Shown piece by piece: positions 479-7,032 of a stretch of 7,224 bases of DNA (within the stretch, counting starts at the first letter, position 1; every line of letters begins with the position of its first letter). The position numbers and the translations under genes were made by a program. Source of the DNA: a virus (lineage: Duplodnaviria > Heunggongvirae > Uroviricota > Caudoviricetes); IMG/VR virus record IMGVR_UViG_3300000059_000071, positions 1 to 7,224 of that record; one strand, written 5' to 3'. Below the pieces are notes generated by a model, which saw nothing but the letters and a program-made list of their open reading frames with translations, did no database searches and was not told where the DNA came from.

Positions 479-1171
479 TTAATTGTGTCGCTTAAGGGTT
501 TGTGACTGGCTGATTAAGACCTTTCCAAAGACCATAAACCGGTGTTCATTTTCGCTGGTAATTCCCCATTCACGGTAAATCTGGTTATCAGAAATCACCA
601 GTAGTTTGTCAGGTATCATTTGCAGTCGTTTGACATAAATTTTATCATCAAAACCAAATACATAGATACCATCTCCATCAAACTGATTGATACTGACATC
701 AACGAAGATGAGATCTCCTGGCTCAATGGTTGGACACATACTGTCCCCACGAACGTTGATAACTTTAATGTGATTGGCTGGTCGTCCGCCAAACATCGAT
801 ACAGCATTATCAGTTCTGTATTCAATGGCATGAATCACATCAATGACATCACCGCCCTGGATAAGGCCATTTCCCGCACTGGCACTGACATCCAGCATTT
901 CAATACGGAATACATCCTTCACCTGCGCAACATCCTCACTAATACTGTTTTTACATACAGTATTACTTTTGAAGTCTGAGGTAAAGAGATCAGCAATATC
1001 AACACCTAAGCTCCTGGCAATATTACTCAGGGCTTGTTCAGTGAATTGTTTCTGCTTACCTGTTTCCAGGCGTGAGATATTCGCCGCATCCACTCCTATT
1101 GCTTCAGCGAGATCGGCGATTTTCATGTTCTTCGCCTGGCGAAGTTGTCTGACTCGATTTCCTATGTTCAT
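479..1171 (-). CDS. CI-type prophage repressor (N-terminal XRE-family HTH, C-terminal LexA-like S24 peptidase domain); predicted RecA-stimulated autocleavage
   Basis: 230-aa ORF. N-terminal HTH (KIADLAEAIGVDAANISRLETG). Ala-Gly candidate cleavage site at residues 99-100 (SASAGNG). Ser in GDSM (res 144) and Lys in YVKRL (res 181), spaced 37 residues as in LexA Ser119/Lys156. Divergent from the cro-like gene. No SD upstream of the ATG, consistent with a leaderless transcript. Confidence 0.9.
   Translation of the reverse strand: MNIGNRVRQLRQAKNMKIADLAEAIGVDAANISRLETGKQKQFTEQALSNIARSLGVDIADLFTSDFKSNTVCKNSISEDVAQVKDVFRIEMLDVSASAGNGLIQGGDVIDVIHAIEYRTDNAVSMFGGRPANHIKVINVRGDSMCPTIEPGDLIFVDVSINQFDGDGIYVFGFDDKIYVKRLQMIPDKLLVISDNQIYREWGITSENEHRFMVFGKVLISQSQTLKRHN
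943..962. promoter_or_regulatory. LexA-box (SOS box)-like palindrome TACTGTTTTTACATACAGTA inside the repressor coding sequence
   Basis: Matches CTGT-N8-ACAG with both TACTGT/ACAGTA arms perfect; only the AT-rich centre differs from the consensus TACTGTATATATATACAGTA. A scan of the other CTGT occurrences found no second match in the window. Confidence 0.55.
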
Positions 1172-1268
1172 GCGTTTATTACATTTCTTTATTGCGCGTT
1201 AAGCAAATCAACTTGCGCAAAATATTTGCGTGAAATAATATGCTCATCACGCAATATGTGGAGGTTAT
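1172..1268. promoter_or_regulatory. Divergent immunity control region (OR-like operators with PRM-like leftward and PR-like rightward promoters)
   Basis: Operator-like site TTGCGCGTTAAGCAA (1192-1206) and a second TTGCGC-containing site, TTGCGCAAAATATTTGCG (1213-1230). Candidate PR: -35 TTGCGC (1213-1218), 17-bp spacer, -10 TAATAT (1236-1241), then SD GGAGG and cro ATG at 1269. Candidate PRM on minus strand: -35 TTGCTT (plus 1201-1206), 17-bp spacer, -10 TGTAAT (plus 1178-1183), putting the start at or near the repressor ATG. Confidence 0.6.
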
Positions 1269-2423: not shown

Positions 2424-3365
2424 ATGAGCACTAAATTAACCGGCTATGTATGGGATGGTTGCGCTGCATCAGGCATGAAATTATCCAGCGTGGCAATTAT
2501 GGCCCGCCTGGCTGATTTCAGTAATGACGAAGGTGTGTGCTGGCCATCAATTGAAACCATTGCCCGCCAGATTGGCGCGGGAATGAGTACCGTCAGAACG
2601 GCTATCGCACGGCTGGAAGCAGAAGGCTGGTTAACGCGTAAGGCGCGTCGCCAGGGTAACCGCAATGCGTCGAATGTTTATCAGCTTAACGTTGCGAAGC
2701 TTCAGGCAGCGGCATTTTCTCAACTGTCAGATTCTGACCCGTCAAAATCTGACGCATCAAAATCTGACCCGTCAAAATTTGATGCGTCGAAATCTGGCAA
2801 AAAAGCGGGTTTTCACCCGTCAGAATCTGGCGGGGATCCGTCAGTAAAATCAAAACATGATCCGTCAGATAAAAAAACTTCTCGTCCGGACGCTTCGCAA
2901 CCGGACACGCAGACGGCTGAACAGGAGTTTTTAACTCGCCATCCTGATGCGGTTGTATTCAGCCCTAAAAAGCGCCAGTGGGGAACGCAGGATGATTTGA
3001 CCTGCGCACAGTGGCTCTGGAAAAAAATCATCGCCCTGTACGAGCAGGCCGCCGAATGTGACGGCGAGGTGGTTCGTCCCAAAGAACCGAACTGGACAGC
3101 CTGGGCAAACGAAATTCGCCTGATGTGTGTGCAGGATGGTCGTACTCANAAACAAATCTGCGAGATGTACAGCCGCGTCAGNCGCGATCCGTTCTGGTGC
3201 CGTAACGTGCTCAGCCCGTCGAAGCTGCGGGAAAAATGGGATGAGCTTTCCCTGCGCTTATCGCCGTCCGTAAGCACGTACACCGAAAAACGCGAAGACC
3301 CGTACTTCAAATCCAGTTACGACAACGTGGACTACAGCCAGATCCCGGCAGGATTCAGGGGGTGA
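2424..3365 (+). CDS. Lambda O-like replication initiator (N-terminal winged-helix DNA-binding domain, repeat linker encoded by the iterons, C-terminal domain)
   Basis: 313-aa ORF in the O position after the CII-like gene. N-terminal HTH/winged-helix-like segment (SIETIARQIGAGMSTVRTAIARLEAEGWL). Internal 5-aa repeats (DPSKS/DASKS) coincide with DNA iterons as in lambda O. SD AGAGGT upstream. Contains two N bases (3149, 3182). Confidence 0.8.
   Translation: MSTKLTGYVWDGCAASGMKLSSVAIMARLADFSNDEGVCWPSIETIARQIGAGMSTVRTAIARLEAEGWLTRKARRQGNRNASNVYQLNVAKLQAAAFSQLSDSDPSKSDASKSDPSKFDASKSGKKAGFHPSESGGDPSVKSKHDPSDKKTSRPDASQPDTQTAEQEFLTRHPDAVVFSPKKRQWGTQDDLTCAQWLWKKIIALYEQAAECDGEVVRPKEPNWTAWANEIRLMCVQDGRTXKQICEMYSRVXRDPFWCRNVLSPSKLREKWDELSLRLSPSVSTYTEKREDPYFKSSYDNVDYSQIPAGFRG
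2724..2877. repeat. Iteron array plus A-rich tract: candidate phage replication origin embedded in the initiator gene
   Basis: Five tandem 15-bp units each containing a GTCA-N5-TGAC-type palindrome (GTCAGATTCTGAC 2726-2738, GTCAAAATCTGAC 2741-2753, ATCAAAATCTGAC 2756-2768, GTCAAAATTTGAT 2771-2783, GTCGAAATCTGGC 2786-2798). A sixth copy at 2819-2831, two degenerate CCGTCAG copies (2838-2845, 2861-2868) each preceded by GATC, then an A-rich run (2868-2877). Confidence 0.65.
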
Positions 3366-3367
3366 TC

Positions 3368-3856
3368 ATGAGTCTGTTAAATGACGTTCAGAAATTCATT
3401 GAAGCCCATCCGGGGTGTACTTCCGGAGACATTGCGGATGCTTTTGCAGGTTACTCACGGCAGCGCGTTCTGCAGTCAGCAAGCAAGTTACGTCAGAGTG
3501 GGCGTGTGGCTCACCGTTGTGAAGGAGATACACGCAGACATTTCCCGCGCCTGACTGAGAGAGCGCAGGAACCGGAACCACAACCAGTTCGTGAAACCAG
3601 ACCTGTGCGCAATTTCTATGTCGGCACTAACGATCCCCGTGTGATTTTGTGCCTGACCCGCCAGGCGGAAGAACTGGAGTCCAGAGGCTTATACCGTCGT
3701 GCTGCAACCGTGTGGATGGCGGCATTCCGTGAAAGCCACTCCCAGCCAGAACGAAACAATTTTCTGGCGCGTCGTGAGCGGTGCTTACGGAAAAGCAGCA
3801 AGCGCGCTGCATCGGGTGAAGAGTGGTATCTGTCAGGGAATTACGTGGGGGCTTAA
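3368..3856 (+). CDS. PerC/Pch-family-like transcriptional regulator with an N-terminal extension
   Basis: ORF with SD GGGGG upstream of ATG 3368 (the GTG at 3362 overlaps the O-like stop and is less likely). C-terminal segment AEELESRGLYRRAATVWMAAF...ERNNFLARRERC resembles the conserved core of PerC-like regulators as recalled. Stop overlaps the next start (TAATG at 3854-3858). Confidence 0.55.
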   Translation: MSLLNDVQKFIEAHPGCTSGDIADAFAGYSRQRVLQSASKLRQSGRVAHRCEGDTRRHFPRLTERAQEPEPQPVRETRPVRNFYVGTNDPRVILCLTRQAEELESRGLYRRAATVWMAAFRESHSQPERNNFLARRERCLRKSSKRAASGEEWYLSGNYVGA

Positions 3857-4509
3857 TGAGTAATAAATATTGCCAGGCGCTGGTGGAACTGCGGAACAAA
3901 CCAGCCCATGAACTGAAGGAAGTGGGCGATCAGTGGCGCACGCCGGACAACATTTTCTGGGGAATTAACACCCTGTTTGGCCCGTTTGTTCTGGATCTGT
4001 TCACTGACGGTGATAACGCCAAATGTGCCGCGTATTACACGGCGGAAGACAACGCGCTGGCGCATGACTGGTCAGAACGCCTTGCGGAGCTTAAAGGTGC
4101 TGCCTTTGGTAATCCCCCATACAGCCGTGCCAGTCAGCATGAGGGGCAATACATCACCGGCATGCGTTACATCATGAAGCATGCCAGTGCCATGCGTGAT
4201 AAGGGCGGGCGCTATGTTTTCCTGATCAAAGCTGCCACCAGCGAAGTGTGGTGGCCGGAAGATGCAGATCATATTGCTTTTATTCGCGGGCGTATTGGTT
4301 TTGAACTGCCTGCCTGGTTTATCCCGAAGGATGAGAAGCAGGTGCCGACAGGCGCTTTCTTCGCTGGTGCTATTGCTGTTTTCGACAAGACCTGGAAGGG
4401 ACCGGCAATCAGCTACATCGGGCGCGATGAACTTGAGGCATGTGGTGAGGCGTTTCTGGCGCAGGTTCGCCAGCAGGCGGAAAAACTGGTCAGGGAGATG
4501 GCGGCATGA
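3856..4509 (+). CDS. Phage Dam-family N6-adenine DNA methyltransferase (orphan, no cognate restriction gene nearby)
   Basis: 217-aa ORF from ATG 3856 (SD GGGGG 4 nt upstream). Catalytic motif IV FGNPPYS. Size and context typical of lambdoid nin-region adenine methylases. Coupled to neighbours at both ends. Confidence 0.8.
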   Translation: MSNKYCQALVELRNKPAHELKEVGDQWRTPDNIFWGINTLFGPFVLDLFTDGDNAKCAAYYTAEDNALAHDWSERLAELKGAAFGNPPYSRASQHEGQYITGMRYIMKHASAMRDKGGRYVFLIKAATSEVWWPEDADHIAFIRGRIGFELPAWFIPKDEKQVPTGAFFAGAIAVFDKTWKGPAISYIGRDELEACGEAFLAQVRQQAEKLVREMAA

Positions 4510-4832
4510 CGACGTTAACTCAATGCCAGCAGCAGGTGCTGGATATGCTGATTTCTTATCAGAAAGAACGTGGCTTCCCGCCAACCAATCAGGAGGTGGC
4601 AACCATGCTGGGATACCGTTCAGTGAATGCAGCGGTGGAGCATCTTCGCGCACTGGAGAAAAAAGGCGTCATCACGATAAAGCGTGGCGTGGCCCGGGGG
4701 ATAACGCTTCATACCGCGGTGAAGGACGACGACAGCGAGGCGGTCGGGATTATCCGCGCACTGCTTACCGGTGAGGAAAACGCAAGGCTGCGTGCAACCC
4801 ACTGGTTACATGAGAGGGGCCTGAAAGTATGA
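4506..4832 (+). CDS. LexA N-terminal DNA-binding-domain homologue lacking the cleavage site and S24 peptidase domain
   Basis: 108-aa ORF. Residues 1-70 align with E. coli LexA residues 1-70 at roughly 50% identity as recalled (ours QQQVLDML...GFPPTNQEVATMLGYRSVNAAVEHLRALEKKGVITI vs LexA RQQEVFDLI...[36 protein letters not shown]). Recognition helix NAAxEHL conserved. No Ala-Gly site or Ser/Lys dyad; a ~35-aa unrelated tail follows. ATGA overlaps at both ends. Confidence 0.8.
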   Translation: MTTLTQCQQQVLDMLISYQKERGFPPTNQEVATMLGYRSVNAAVEHLRALEKKGVITIKRGVARGITLHTAVKDDDSEAVGIIRALLTGEENARLRATHWLHERGLKV

Positions 4833-5218
4833 AGCTGATCCTGCCTTTTCCGCCCAGCGTGAACACGTACTGGCGACACCCCAACAAAGGGGCGTTTGCT
4901 GGTAAGAGCCTGATAAGCGCGGCGGGGCGAAAATTCCAGAGCGCGGCGTGCGCAGCAATAGTTGAGCAGTTACGTCGTCTGCCGAAACCAACGTCGGCAC
5001 CTGCTTCAGTGGAGATCGTGTTGTTTCCTCCGGATAACCGGATCCGCGATCTGGACAACTATAACAAGGCGCTGTTTGACGCCCTGACCCACGCGGGTGT
5101 GTGGGAAGACGACAGCCAGGTGAAAAGAATGCTGGTGGAGTGGGGACCGGTTATCCCGGAAGGGAAGGTCGAGATCACTATCAGTAAGTACGAGAAAACG
5201 GCGGGTGCAGCCGCCTGA
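4829..5218 (+). CDS. rusA: RusA Holliday-junction resolvase
   Basis: 129-aa ORF. Motifs LPFPPSVNTYWRH and RDLDNYNKALFDALTHAGVWEDDSQV match E. coli RusA (LPWPPSNNRYYRH ... [26 protein letters not shown]), including the catalytic Asp cluster. SD GAGAGGGG upstream. Confidence 0.9.
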   Translation: MKLILPFPPSVNTYWRHPNKGAFAGKSLISAAGRKFQSAACAAIVEQLRRLPKPTSAPASVEIVLFPPDNRIRDLDNYNKALFDALTHAGVWEDDSQVKRMLVEWGPVIPEGKVEITISKYEKTAGAAA

Positions 5219-5237: not shown

Positions 5238-6035
5238 ATGAATAATCTGATGGTCATTGATGGTATTGAAGTTCGTCGTGATGCTTATGGGCGTTACAGC
5301 CTGAACGATCTGCACAGGGCTGCCGGTTCTCTGGATAAGCATAAGCCTGCATTCTGGCTCCGCAATGAGCAAACTGAACGTTTAATAAGCGAGTTGCAGA
5401 TTTGCAACTCGGTCAATATAGAGCCAGTTAACGTTATTCGTGGCGGAAATAACCAGGGGACGTATGTCTGCAAAGAACTGGTGTATGCCTATGCAATGTG
5501 GATCAGTCCGTCATTCCATCTGAAGGTGATCCGTACTTTCGATATGGTAACCAGCGCACCGGAAAAATTATCCGGGCAGGCTGCTGACAAGATGCAGGCT
5601 GGAGTGATTCTGCTGGACTTTATGCGCCGGGAGTTAAACCTGTCTAACTCTTCAGTGCTTGGTGCCTGTCAGAAACTCCAGGAGGCTGTTGGCTTACCGA
5701 ATCTGGCACCGCGCTATGCCATTGATGCTCCTGCTGACGCGCCTGATGGCTCAAGCCGCCCCACGCTGTCACTGAGTGCACTGCTGAAGCAGTATGGTAT
5801 CCGCCTGACAGCTAATCAGGCATATCACCAGATGGTGAAGCTGGGGATCGTCGAGCAGCGCGAACGATACAGCCGTACCGCGATTAACAACATCAAAAAA
5901 TTCTGGTCGCTGACAGCGAAAGGCTGCATGTTCGGCAAGAACATCACCAGTCCCGCAAATCCGCGCGAGACGCAGCCGCATTTCTTCGAATCCCGATTCC
6001 CTGAGCTGTTAAAGCTGCTCGATACCGTTCATTGA
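5238..6035 (+). CDS. KilA-N domain protein (Roi/antirepressor-like) with an uncharacterised C-terminal domain
   Basis: 265-aa ORF from ATG 5238 with SD GAGGAG 8 nt upstream. N-terminal ~100 aa (MVIDGIEVRRDAYGRYSLNDLHRAAG...KPAFWLRNEQTERLISEL) has the character of KilA-N/Roi DNA-binding domains. The C-terminal ~160 aa was not recognised. Confidence 0.75.
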   Translation: MNNLMVIDGIEVRRDAYGRYSLNDLHRAAGSLDKHKPAFWLRNEQTERLISELQICNSVNIEPVNVIRGGNNQGTYVCKELVYAYAMWISPSFHLKVIRTFDMVTSAPEKLSGQAADKMQAGVILLDFMRRELNLSNSSVLGACQKLQEAVGLPNLAPRYAIDAPADAPDGSSRPTLSLSALLKQYGIRLTANQAYHQMVKLGIVEQRERYSRTAINNIKKFWSLTAKGCMFGKNITSPANPRETQPHFFESRFPELLKLLDTVH

Positions 6036-6036
6036 G

Positions 6037-7032
6037 GTGACCGTGAGAGCACTACTGACCCCTGAAATTGCCCCGCGTATGGGGATCGTATTGTTCAGAC
6101 CAGGTTCAGAGCTGATGCCCCTGTTTATGCAGGGGCGTGTCCTGCTGGAGCCTGAGCCGGAACGTTATTCATCTTTCGCCAGCGGTGCCGTTCCGGCGGC
6201 ATCACAACCGCTGGCGGATGATCCTGCCGTTCGGGCCGTGTTCCGCAATGAGGCAGTGATCCGTCGTGCTGGTGGCGTGGAATGTCTTGAAAGCTGGTTA
6301 CTTCGTGAAAAAGGCTGCCAGTGGCCTCATTCCGACTGGCACAGCGAGAACATGACCACAATGCGACACGCTCCGGGCGCAATCCGTCTGTGCTGGCACT
6401 GCGATAACCAGCTGCGCGATCAGTTCACGGAACGGCTGGAATCAATGGCAACGGATAACTGTGCCCGCTGGGTGTTGTCTGTTGTGCGTCGGGATCTCGG
6501 TTTTGATGACAGTCACGTTGTGACAATGCCGGAACTGTGCTGGTGGCTGGTTCGTAATGACCTGGCGGATGCCTTACCGGAAAGTGCAGCCCGTAAGGCA
6601 CTGAGATTACCGAAGCCTGTTGTGCCGTCTGTCACCCGGGAAAGTGACCTTGTGCCTTCGGTTCCTGCCACCAGCATCATCCAGGATAAAGCGAAAAAGG
6701 TGCTGGCGCTGAAAGTGGATCCGGAGTCGCCGGAGTCTTTTATGTTACGCCCAAAACGTCGCCGCTGGGTTAATGAAAAGTACACGCGCTGGGTTAAGAC
6801 GCAGCCGTGTGCATGTTGTGGAAAGCCTGCTGATGATCCCCACCANCTGATAGGCCACGGTCAGGGNGGAATGGGTACAAAAGCGCATGANCTCTTTGTG
6901 TTGCCTTTGTGCAGAAAGCATCACGACGAGCTGCATGCGGATACCNTGGCATTTGAAGAGAAGTATGGCTCCCAGCTGGAGNTGATATTTCGTTTTATCG
7001 ATCGTGCGCTGGCAATNGGCGTGCTGGCCTGA
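6037..7032 (+). CDS. DUF968-like prophage protein with C-terminal Cys/His (HNH-like) motif; start codon uncertain (GTG 6037, GTG 6043 or ATG 6079)
   Basis: 331-aa ORF directly upstream of Q, the position of DUF968 proteins in lambdoid prophages as recalled. Cys/His motifs CWHCDNQ and CACCGKP...CRKHHDELH. Six N bases inside the ORF (6846, 6868, 6891, 6946, 6972, 7018). Confidence 0.65.

What the first reader, a model, noticed from the sequence alone, without database searches (positions are those of the whole stretch)
4506..4832. Phage-encoded LexA paralogue with DNA-binding domain only
The first 70 residues are a clear LexA DNA-binding domain with the recognition helix kept, but the Ala-Gly cleavage site and Ser/Lys protease/dimerisation domain are replaced by a ~35-aa unrelated tail. 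Such a protein could occupy SOS boxes without being inactivated by RecA, or could compete with or heterodimerise with host LexA. It sits in a translationally coupled early cassette, and the only SOS-box-like site in the window lies in the repressor gene.
Basis: partly seen in the sequence, partly recalled or inferred. Interest (0 to 1): 0.75.

Follow-up and report, generated by a model that had tools for sequence, protein, structure and literature searches.

The report
Phage LexA-like DNA-binding protein without protease
This is a real, very common but functionally untested prophage gene for a small protein that keeps LexA's DNA-reading domain and lacks its self-cleaving half, so it may act as a damage-proof stand-in for the host SOS repressor.

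Summary
The ORF at 4506-4832 is real. It encodes 108 aa: a LexA-type winged helix (residues 1-68; Pfam LexA_DNA_bind, E 2.9e-19; model 1.0 A from E. coli LexA on DNA) plus a conserved two-helix tail (74-103). There is no S24 protease domain.

It is not new as an object. The exact protein is already deposited as "LexA family transcriptional regulator". The gene is in 2233 of 5426 complete E. coli genomes and in 50 phage records (mEp460, SfV, SfII, Stx2a/2c/2k phages). It matches PHROG 362 over its full length.

I found no functional study. The closest characterised relative is the truncated LexA homologue gp6 of Bacillus phage GIL01, a late-gene activator.

The gene has no promoter of its own and is translationally coupled to dam and rusA in the early-right operon upstream of Q.

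Four of five LexA DNA-contact residues are kept. My best, untested reading is a RecA-insensitive dimer that occupies SOS-type boxes after host LexA is destroyed.

It is a perfect TACTGT-N8-ACAGTA inside the cI-like repressor gene, and it is kept at the same codons in alleles only about 70% identical.

The parts
4506..4832 (+). Gene for the 108-aa LexA-NTD protein (PHROG 362; NCBI name 'LexA family transcriptional regulator')
   Evidence: ORF list; Pfam, PHROG and NCBIfam hits; the exact sequence is in public databases.
4506..4709 (+). LexA-type winged helix-turn-helix domain, residues 1-68
   Evidence: Pfam residues 1-65; model helices 6-22, 28-35 and 40-52 with strands 56-58 and 66-68; 1.0 A rmsd to 3jso.
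4620..4661 (+). Recognition helix region, residues 39-52 (SVNAAVEHLRALEK). It keeps LexA Ser39, Asn41, Ala42 and Glu45; Glu44 is Val.
   Evidence: Alignment to E. coli LexA. Contact residues as listed in PMC13416735, citing Knegtel 1995. R38-N41 and L47-E51 are invariant in the E. coli-type subfamily.
4725..4814 (+). Conserved C-terminal two-helix hairpin, residues 74-103; proposed dimerisation or partner-binding module
   Evidence: Model helices 74-88 and 93-103, with pLDDT ~87 for residues 81-100. It is conserved down to ~40% identity across genera (I82, I83, L86, L87, A93, A97, L101).
4492..4509 (+). Shine-Dalgarno AGGGAG (4492-4497) and the ATGA start/stop overlap with dam (4506-4509)
   Evidence: Sequence read directly.
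4829..4832 (+). ATGA overlap between the stop of the LexA-NTD gene and the start of rusA
3823..4509 (+). Upstream coupled gene: phage N6-adenine methyltransferase (Dam). The likely true start is the ATG at 3856.
   Evidence: Pfam Dam, E 1.1e-45; mEp460 and SfV annotation.
4829..5218 (+). Downstream coupled gene: RusA Holliday-junction resolvase
   Evidence: Pfam RusA, E 6.1e-15.
943..962 (.). Perfect SOS box TACTGTTTTTACATACAGTA inside the cI-like repressor gene (nt 210-229 of the CDS, in the interdomain linker). It is a candidate target of host LexA and of the LexA-NTD protein.
   Evidence: It is kept at the same codons in alleles down to ~70% identity.
479..1171 (-). cI-like prophage repressor (XRE HTH plus Peptidase_S24) that carries the intragenic SOS box
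   Evidence: Pfam; 100% identical to the gene in E. coli APEC E19025.

Best explanation
The gene encodes a small delayed-early protein of a lambdoid prophage. It is a LexA-type winged-helix DNA-binding domain fused to a conserved two-helix C-terminal hairpin. It has no S24 autoprotease domain and no strictly conserved Ala-Gly site, so activated RecA cannot inactivate it.

Shown: the domain identity, the absence of the protease, retention of 4 of 5 LexA DNA-contact residues and of the wing Arg64-Gly65, conservation of the tail, polycistronic translationally coupled placement between the replication genes and Q, and the presence of strong SOS boxes in the carrier phages.

Inferred: the amphipathic hairpin supplies dimerisation in place of the lost S24 domain, and the dimer binds CTGT-N8-ACAG-type operators. 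The protein is made only after PR is derepressed, which after DNA damage is when host LexA has already been cleaved. It would then re-occupy SOS boxes as a non-cleavable LexA surrogate.

Expected consequences: re-repression of the host SOS regulon and of LexA-controlled elements that compete with the phage, and occupation of the phage's own boxes. Those are the intragenic box in cI, the dinI-like promoter and the 5' end of the orf48 methylase gene in relatives.
For: - Domain and fold.
- Recognition residues S39, N41, A42 and E45 and the wing R64-G65-I66 are retained and invariant in the E. coli-type subfamily.
- No S24 domain.
- The tail is conserved across Escherichia, Citrobacter, Salmonella, Cronobacter, Klebsiella, Raoultella, Atlantibacter and Kosakonia, with hydrophobic positions spaced i/i+3/i+4 on both helices.
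- No promoter-like site and no + strand terminator-like site between 3000 and 5400, with ATGA overlaps at both ends of the gene.
- The gene always lies upstream of DUF968 and the late regulator (annotated Q/antiterminator in the E. coli, Shigella and Cronobacter phages; an unannotated 200-aa gene in that position in Klebsiella).
- Carrier phages hold high-scoring SOS boxes: in cI (window, mEp460, SfII), at the dinI-like gene (mEp460, Stx2c phage), and at the orf48 start (SfV, mEp460, Stx2c phage, L014).
- All 13 phage records with the SOS-box cI allele also carry this gene. So do 18 of 19 sampled E. coli places.
- In Klebsiella prophages the homologue lies downstream of a dinI gene whose -10 is overlapped by a perfect SOS box, with no convincing terminator between them. 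That arrangement fits an SOS-linked role.
- Precedent: GIL01 uses phage proteins (gp7, gp6) to manipulate LexA-controlled promoters.
Against: - No binding, oligomerisation or reporter data exist, and I found no functional paper.
- LexA contact residue Glu44 is Val here, and Arg7, which is conserved in relatives, is Cys.
- In about half of the distant subfamilies position 45 is L, I, D, A, G or V. The family as a whole is therefore not locked to the canonical SOS box.
- No SOS box is common to all carriers. L013 and the Cronobacter locus have none within 11-12 kb, and SfV has none in its immunity region.
- Phage Eeyore keeps the cI box without any homologue of this gene.
- The cI-box/gene association could be plain linkage, since the two lie about 3.5 kb apart.
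- Dimerisation through the tail is inference only. The model is a monomer with pTM 0.57.
Confidence: 0.4

Rival explanations
1. It is a phage-specific transcription factor (activator or repressor) with its own operator, distinct from the host SOS box. GIL01 gp6 is the model: a truncated LexA homologue that evolved a new palindromic site and activates the late promoter.
For: gp6 is the only characterised truncated phage LexA homologue, and it binds GaCACAnnTGTGaC rather than the host LexA box. Recognition-helix positions 43-45 vary between subfamilies of this family, as expected for diverging specificities. No SOS box is shared by all carriers.
Against: The E. coli-type subfamily keeps the LexA-specific S39, N41, A42 and E45, unlike gp6, which relies on K38. 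Lambdoid late transcription is driven by Q antitermination, so no activator is needed. I found no recurrent alternative palindrome near the gene. The relationship to gp6 is structural only: no tectivirus or Bacillus phage appears among the 63 tblastn hits.
Confidence: 0.3
2. It is not a transcription factor. It is a DNA-targeting or accessory subunit for the neighbouring DNA-metabolism proteins (RusA resolvase, DUF968/HNH nuclease, Dam), and the helical tail is the docking element.
For: Synteny is conserved with DUF968 in 5 of 5 contexts and with RusA in 4 of 5. The gene is translationally coupled to whatever lies upstream and to rusA downstream.
Against: nin-region genes are a mosaic of unrelated functions, so synteny is weak evidence. 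LexA-type wHTH domains are known as sequence-specific operator binders. The fused products in databases (Dam-LexA, RusA-LexA) look like frameshift read-throughs of the ATGA overlaps rather than real fusions.
Confidence: 0.12
3. It is a LexA antagonist. It either competes for SOS half-sites without repressing or forms mixed complexes with host LexA, so that it raises rather than lowers SOS expression.
For: The recognition residues are shared with LexA.
Against: The LexA dimer interface lies in the S24 domain (established knowledge), and that domain is absent here. A protein that sits on the operator would be expected to occlude the promoter just as LexA does. The gene is expressed from the lytic operon, when LexA is often already cleaved.
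Confidence: 0.08
4. It is a decaying remnant of a captured lexA gene with no function.
For: The architecture is truncated. A weak colinear alignment runs into the LexA hinge. Many frameshifted copies exist in databases.
Against: The full length, tail included, is conserved at 40-98% identity across at least eight genera. The recognition helix is invariant. The RBS is good and the gene is translationally coupled. It is present in 41% of complete E. coli genomes.
Confidence: 0.02

Closest known systems
GIL01 gp6 (Bacillus thuringiensis tectivirus), a truncated LexA homologue that activates the late promoter P3 (Fornelos et al., NAR 2018, PMC6182141)
   Same: Both are encoded by a temperate phage. 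Both consist of the LexA winged-helix DNA-binding domain without the S24 autoprotease, and both are expressed from early genes. Both phages also carry genuine LexA boxes.
   Different: gp6 ends right after the wing and has no tail. This protein adds a conserved 35-aa two-helix hairpin. gp6 recognises its own palindrome through K38, whereas this protein keeps the E. coli LexA contact residues. The host phylum, phage type and genomic position (nin-like region before Q) all differ. There is no detectable sequence-level kinship. The function of this protein is untested.
Host LexA (TIGR00498; PDB 1jhh, 3jso)
   Same: The N-terminal domain is ~50% identical to E. coli LexA and superposes at 1.0 A rmsd. 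S39, N41, A42, E45 and R64-G65 are kept.
   Different: There is no S24 domain and no catalytic Ser119/Lys156. The position aligned with Ala84-Gly85 is Thr-Gly here and varies among relatives (A-G, V-G, A-N). The score is below the equivalog cut-off. The protein therefore cannot self-cleave, bind RecA filaments through the C-terminal domain, or dimerise the LexA way.
PHROG 362 / NCBI 'LexA family transcriptional regulator' / mEp460_046 'LexA DNA binding domain protein' / SfV orf42
   Same: This is the same protein family. The match to PHROG 362 is full length (E 2.2e-59). The gene is 96-99% identical to genes already annotated in 50 phage records and 2233 E. coli genomes.
   Different: Nothing differs. 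These entries are annotations by similarity only, with no assigned mechanism.
GIL01 gp7 and prophage DinI-like proteins (phage-encoded modulators of the SOS response)
   Same: They would achieve the same proposed outcome: keeping LexA-controlled promoters shut, or damping RecA-dependent signalling, to the phage's benefit. dinI-like genes sit in the same phages.
   Different: gp7 acts by binding LexA and DinI by binding RecA. This protein would act by occupying the DNA itself.

Membership tests
LexA repressor proper (TIGR00498 equivalog) | N-terminal LexA_DNA_bind winged helix | tested here: met
   Pfam PF01726, E 2.9e-19, full profile length; 1.0 A rmsd to 3jso.
LexA repressor proper (TIGR00498 equivalog) | C-terminal Peptidase_S24 domain with the Ser/Lys dyad | tested here: not met
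   No PF00717 hit. The protein ends at residue 108.
LexA repressor proper (TIGR00498 equivalog) | Ala-Gly self-cleavage site in the hinge | tested here: not met
   The aligned position is Thr88-Gly89. Close relatives vary there (A-G, V-G, A-N).
LexA repressor proper (TIGR00498 equivalog) | Score above the curated equivalog cut-off | tested here: not met
   68.5 bits against 110.95.
LexA repressor proper (TIGR00498 equivalog) | Binds CTGT-N8-ACAG SOS boxes and represses SOS genes | not testable with these tools
   The only evidence is indirect: 4 of 5 contact residues are kept.
PHROG 362 / enterobacterial prophage 'LexA family protein' (wHTH plus helical tail) | Full-length similarity, including the C-terminal hairpin | tested here: met
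   PHROG 362 residues 1-108 against profile 1-106 of 106, E 2.2e-59; alignments A3 and A5.
PHROG 362 / enterobacterial prophage 'LexA family protein' (wHTH plus helical tail) | Position in the early-right (nin-like) region upstream of DUF968/HNH and the late regulator (Q) | tested here: met
   The window itself, mEp460, SfV, the APEC prophage, Cronobacter and mEp390 carry an annotated Q or antiterminator; the Klebsiella locus has an unannotated 200-aa gene in that position.
gp6-type truncated phage LexA homologues (GIL01) | Phage-encoded LexA DNA-binding domain without the protease | tested here: met
gp6-type truncated phage LexA homologues (GIL01) | Sequence-level relatedness to gp6 or other tectivirus proteins | tested here: not met
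   tblastn against 50,697 phage records gave 63 hits, none from a tectivirus or Bacillus phage. gp6 itself was not compared directly.
gp6-type truncated phage LexA homologues (GIL01) | Activates a late promoter from a site overlapping the -35 element | not testable with these tools
   No late promoter lies in the window, and lambdoid late expression uses Q.

The most novel reading that the evidence does not exclude
The protein is a RecA-proof LexA surrogate made by the induced prophage. Once host LexA has been destroyed, it re-occupies SOS boxes genome-wide. This shuts the host SOS regulon and blocks LexA-controlled competitors such as antirepressor-dependent prophages and colicins.

It would also bind the conserved intragenic SOS box in the phage's own cI gene. 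That would hinder transcription of the repressor gene and lock in the lytic decision. Together the two effects would form a previously undescribed commitment and host-takeover circuit, present in about 40% of E. coli genomes and in several Stx phages.
Probability: 0.22. Interest if true: 0.78.

Novelty: new variant of a known kind. Interest (0 to 1): 0.5.

Why it matters
The gene is in 41% of complete E. coli genomes and in Stx2a, Stx2c and Stx2k converting phages. That includes phi1720a-02, which has been shown experimentally to interfere with co-resident prophages (there attributed to Cro).

If the protein really is a non-cleavable occupant of SOS boxes, it would change how lysogens and induced cells run the SOS response. 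That would bear on Shiga-toxin release, prophage competition, SOS-dependent mutagenesis and antibiotic tolerance.

Separately, the conserved perfect SOS box inside a cI-type repressor gene suggests that host LexA feeds directly into the immunity switch of a prophage group found in about 1000 of the 5426 genomes. I could not find this described anywhere. Both ideas can be tested with simple EMSA and reporter experiments.

Tried and rejected
- Single-sequence AlphaFold gave an unusable model (pLDDT 49.8). The alignment-based run replaced it.
- Seven literature searches, by concept, annotation phrase and accession, found no functional work on this family. The mEpimmI paper mentions 'LexA-like' only for the S24 domain of cI.
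- I looked for one SOS box shared by all carriers as a candidate operator. There is none.
- I looked for a consensus sigma-70 promoter next to the cI SOS box. The scan called none. By eye, a weak TTTACC-N17-TACTGT exists on the cI-sense strand, but it overlaps conserved codons (DLFT), and no in-frame start codon is conserved downstream (M, V or L at residue 92). I therefore dropped the idea of an SOS-induced cI C-terminal fragment as unsupported.
- The PADLOC hit (CARF3, E 3.6e-4, 18 bits) covers the wHTH only, so I treat it as generic.
- Heterodimerisation with LexA was rejected because the dimerisation domain is absent.
- Trans-cleavage at the vestigial A/T-G position was rejected as a general feature, because the dipeptide is not conserved.

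Full report
**What the window is.** The 7.2-kb window is the immunity-to-nin region of an E. coli lambdoid prophage. It reads, in order:
- a cI-like repressor (479-1171, minus strand; HTH plus Peptidase_S24)
- cro (1269-1529)
- a CII/YmfL-like gene
- a replication-initiator gene carrying 15-bp iterons (2733-2796)
- a PerC-family gene
- dam
- the ORF in question
- rusA
- a KilA-N gene
- a DUF968/HNH gene

The cI gene is 100% identical to that of E. coli APEC E19025. The whole arrangement matches phages mEp460 and SfV and many chromosomal prophages.

**Checking the observation.** The ORF 4506-4832 encodes 108 aa. An AGGGAG ribosome-binding site lies 8 nt upstream. The ATG overlaps the dam stop (ATGA) and the stop overlaps the rusA ATG (ATGA).
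- Residues 1-65 match Pfam LexA_DNA_bind end to end (E 2.9e-19).
- The best solved relatives are E. coli LexA structures (E 6e-16, residues 2-70).
- An AlphaFold model built on 34 family members (pLDDT 82.6) superposes on LexA in its DNA complex at 1.0 A over 67 columns, 51% identity.
- There is no S24 hit, and the LexA equivalog model is missed by a wide margin (68.5 against 110.95 bits).

**The tail.** Residues 74-88 and 93-103 are predicted as two helices after a low-confidence linker. This tail is not arbitrary. It is conserved in relatives that are only 38-50% identical, from Cronobacter, Salmonella, Klebsiella, Raoultella, Atlantibacter, Kosakonia and Citrobacter. Hydrophobic positions recur (I82, I83, L86, L87, A93, A97, L101).

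Both the TIGR00498 hit (residues 1-91 on profile positions 1-91) and a profile alignment to E. coli LexA run colinearly and without gaps to LexA residue ~90. The alignment places T88-G89 opposite the LexA Ala84-Gly85 cleavage site. Column scores there are weak, and the dipeptide varies among close relatives (A-G, T-G, V-G, A-N).

I read this as a possible evolutionary remnant of the hinge, remodelled into a helical module, and not as a working cleavage site.

**Is it new?** Not as an object.
- The identical protein is already deposited as 'LexA family transcriptional regulator' on 23 contigs, in a 90% cluster of 2527 members.
- The gene is found at 95% identity or more in 2233 of 5426 complete E. 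coli genomes.
- It is in 50 phage records, including mEp460 ('LexA DNA binding domain protein'), SfV orf42, SfII, SfIV, cdtI, phi1720a-02 and Stx2a/2c/2k phages.
- PHROG 362 ('transcriptional repressor') matches it over its full length.
- Short LexA-DBD-only proteins are common among predicted viral structures.

I found no functional study of this family. The only characterised truncated phage LexA homologue I found is GIL01 gp6. It is a bare winged helix that binds its own palindrome and activates the late promoter.

**Expression context.** Between 3000 and 5400 there is no promoter-like site and no plus-strand terminator-like site. The genes from the replication initiator to rusA overlap start-to-stop. 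I infer that the protein is made only as part of the PR early-right transcript, during lytic growth or induction.

In every context examined the gene sits upstream of DUF968/HNH and the late regulator (annotated Q/antiterminator, except for an unannotated 200-aa gene at that position in the Klebsiella locus). rusA follows it in four of five contexts. The upstream partner varies: dam in E. coli and Cronobacter, a replication gene in mEp390, and dinI plus one ORF in Klebsiella.

**DNA specificity.** The E. coli LexA residues reported to contact DNA are Ser39, Asn41, Ala42, Glu44 and Glu45 (Knegtel 1995, as cited in PMC13416735; Asn41 also in PMC5999292). The phage protein has S39, N41, A42, V44 and E45, plus the wing R64-G65-I66. 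R38-N41 and L47-E51 are invariant in the E. coli-type subfamily. That favours recognition of CTGT-type half-sites.

Against a family-wide rule, position 45 is L, I, D, A, G or V in about half of the distant subfamilies.

**SOS boxes in the carriers.** Window 943-962 is TACTGTTTTTACATACAGTA, a perfect 12/12 match to TACTGT-N8-ACAGTA. None of 200 shuffles contained one. Its PWM score is 25.6 against a mean best score of 7.8 (sd 2.6) in simulated sequences, with 0 of 2000 reaching 25. The PWM was built from 20 E. coli boxes recalled from memory.

The box lies in the linker-coding part of the cI-like gene. It occupies exactly the same codons in every allele examined, including two that are only about 70% identical:

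| Allele | Sequence (cI-sense strand) |
|---|---|
| window, mEp460 | TACTGTATGTAAAAACAGTA |
| SfII, E. coli 90-1 | TACTGTATATAAAAACAGTA |
| E. coli MRSN346355 | TACTGTACATATAAACAGTA |
| phage Eeyore | TACTGTATGTAAATCCAGTG |

The half-sites are kept while the spacer, the encoded residues and the surrounding linker all diverge. That is the signature of selection on the DNA. This cI allele is in about 1060 genomes.

Related phages carry further strong boxes. There are two at the dinI-like promoter (mEp460, Stx2c phage). There is one at nt +9 of the orf48 'DNA methylase' gene downstream of Q (SfV, mEp460, Stx2c phage, L014).

In Klebsiella prophages a perfect box overlaps the -10 of dinI. The LexA-NTD homologue follows on the same strand, with no convincing terminator between them.

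**Association.** All 13 phage records with the SOS-box cI allele also carry the LexA-NTD gene. In a spread sample of E. coli genomes, 18 of 19 places with the allele do too. The reverse is not true: most copies of the gene accompany other immunity alleles that lack a box (SfV, L013, L014). Phage Eeyore has the box but no homologue. Because the two loci are only about 3.5 kb apart, linkage could explain the association. It is suggestive and not decisive.

**Most likely mechanism (confidence about 0.4).** The protein is a RecA-insensitive LexA-like operator binder. I infer that it dimerises through its helical hairpin. It is produced once PR fires and then occupies SOS-type boxes after host LexA has been cleaved. 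This would re-silence host SOS genes and LexA-controlled competitors, and it would occupy the phage's own boxes, including the one inside cI.

Shown: domain, fold, absence of the protease, residue retention, operon position and the presence of boxes. Inferred: dimerisation, specificity and the physiological role.

**Rivals.**
- A gp6-like regulator with a private operator (0.3).
- An accessory or targeting subunit for RusA, DUF968 or Dam (0.12).
- A LexA antagonist (0.08). Heterodimerisation is unlikely because the LexA dimer interface is in the missing domain.
- A dead remnant (0.02), contradicted by conservation.

**Context from the literature.** phi1720a-02 carries both this gene and the SOS-box cI allele. 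It suppresses induction of co-resident prophages. The authors showed that its Cro is sufficient for the case they studied, and they did not examine this gene.

**Verdict.** This is a correct observation of an already-annotated, very widespread and mechanistically uncharacterised prophage gene. It is a variant (with a conserved helical tail and LexA-like recognition residues) of the known kind 'phage-encoded truncated LexA homologue'. The conserved intragenic SOS box in cI is the most unexpected thing in the window and deserves its own follow-up.

Noticed in passing
window 943-962 (inside the cI-like gene 479-1171, minus strand): A perfect SOS box lies at nt 210-229 of the repressor CDS. It is kept at the same codons in alleles down to ~70% identity, while the spacer and the surrounding linker diverge. 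This implies that host LexA binds inside the prophage repressor gene. I found no description of this. Its role is open: a roadblock to PRM transcripts, or an internal or antisense promoter.
   Followed up: partly
L003 (SfV) 34170-34189; L002 (mEp460) 41021-41040; L014 12094-12113; L015 (Stx2c phage) 16751-16770: A conserved SOS box, TACTGTAAAAATAAACAGTG, starts 9 nt into the orf48 'DNA methyltransferase' gene that lies between Q and the lysis genes in related phages. This may be a LexA-controlled moron in the late region.
   Followed up: partly
L009-L011 (Klebsiella prophages) 5385-6393: A perfect SOS box, TACTGTTTATTTATACAGTA, overlaps the -10 of a dinI gene. A 96-aa ORF and the 130-aa LexA-NTD homologue follow on the same strand. 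This may be an SOS-induced operon that encodes a non-cleavable LexA-like protein.
   Followed up: partly
proteins P0127, P0129, P0130, P0137 and P0140: These metagenomic proteins carry two tandem LexA_DNA_bind domains in one chain and no S24 domain. Covalent pseudo-dimers are another way to do without the LexA dimerisation domain.
   Followed up: no
window 2657-4129: E. coli K-12 CPS-53/KpLE1 (yfdN PerC-family gene, truncated yfdM dam) is a remnant of this same module. It breaks off inside dam, so K-12 lacks the LexA-NTD gene.
   Followed up: no
window 2733-2796: There are four and a third copies of a 15-bp direct repeat (TCTGACCCGTCAAAA) inside the replication-initiator gene. They encode the repeated DPSKSDASKS stretch and look like origin iterons.
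   Followed up: no
window 1190-1256: The cI-cro intergenic region holds inverted repeats built on TTGCG...CGCAA half-sites (TTGCGTGA/TCACGCAA). These are probably the OR operators. A PRM-like promoter is called at 1262-1235 on the minus strand.
   Followed up: no
window 3149, 3182, 6846, 6867, 6891, 6946, 6982, 7017: Eight N bases are in the sequence. They produce X residues in the replication-protein and DUF968 translations. None falls in the gene under study.
   Followed up: yes
window 3362-3856: A PerC-family regulator gene (a yfdN homologue) sits in the same coupled cassette. PerC/Pch-type prophage regulators are known to affect virulence loci in pathogenic E. coli (established knowledge).
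   Followed up: no
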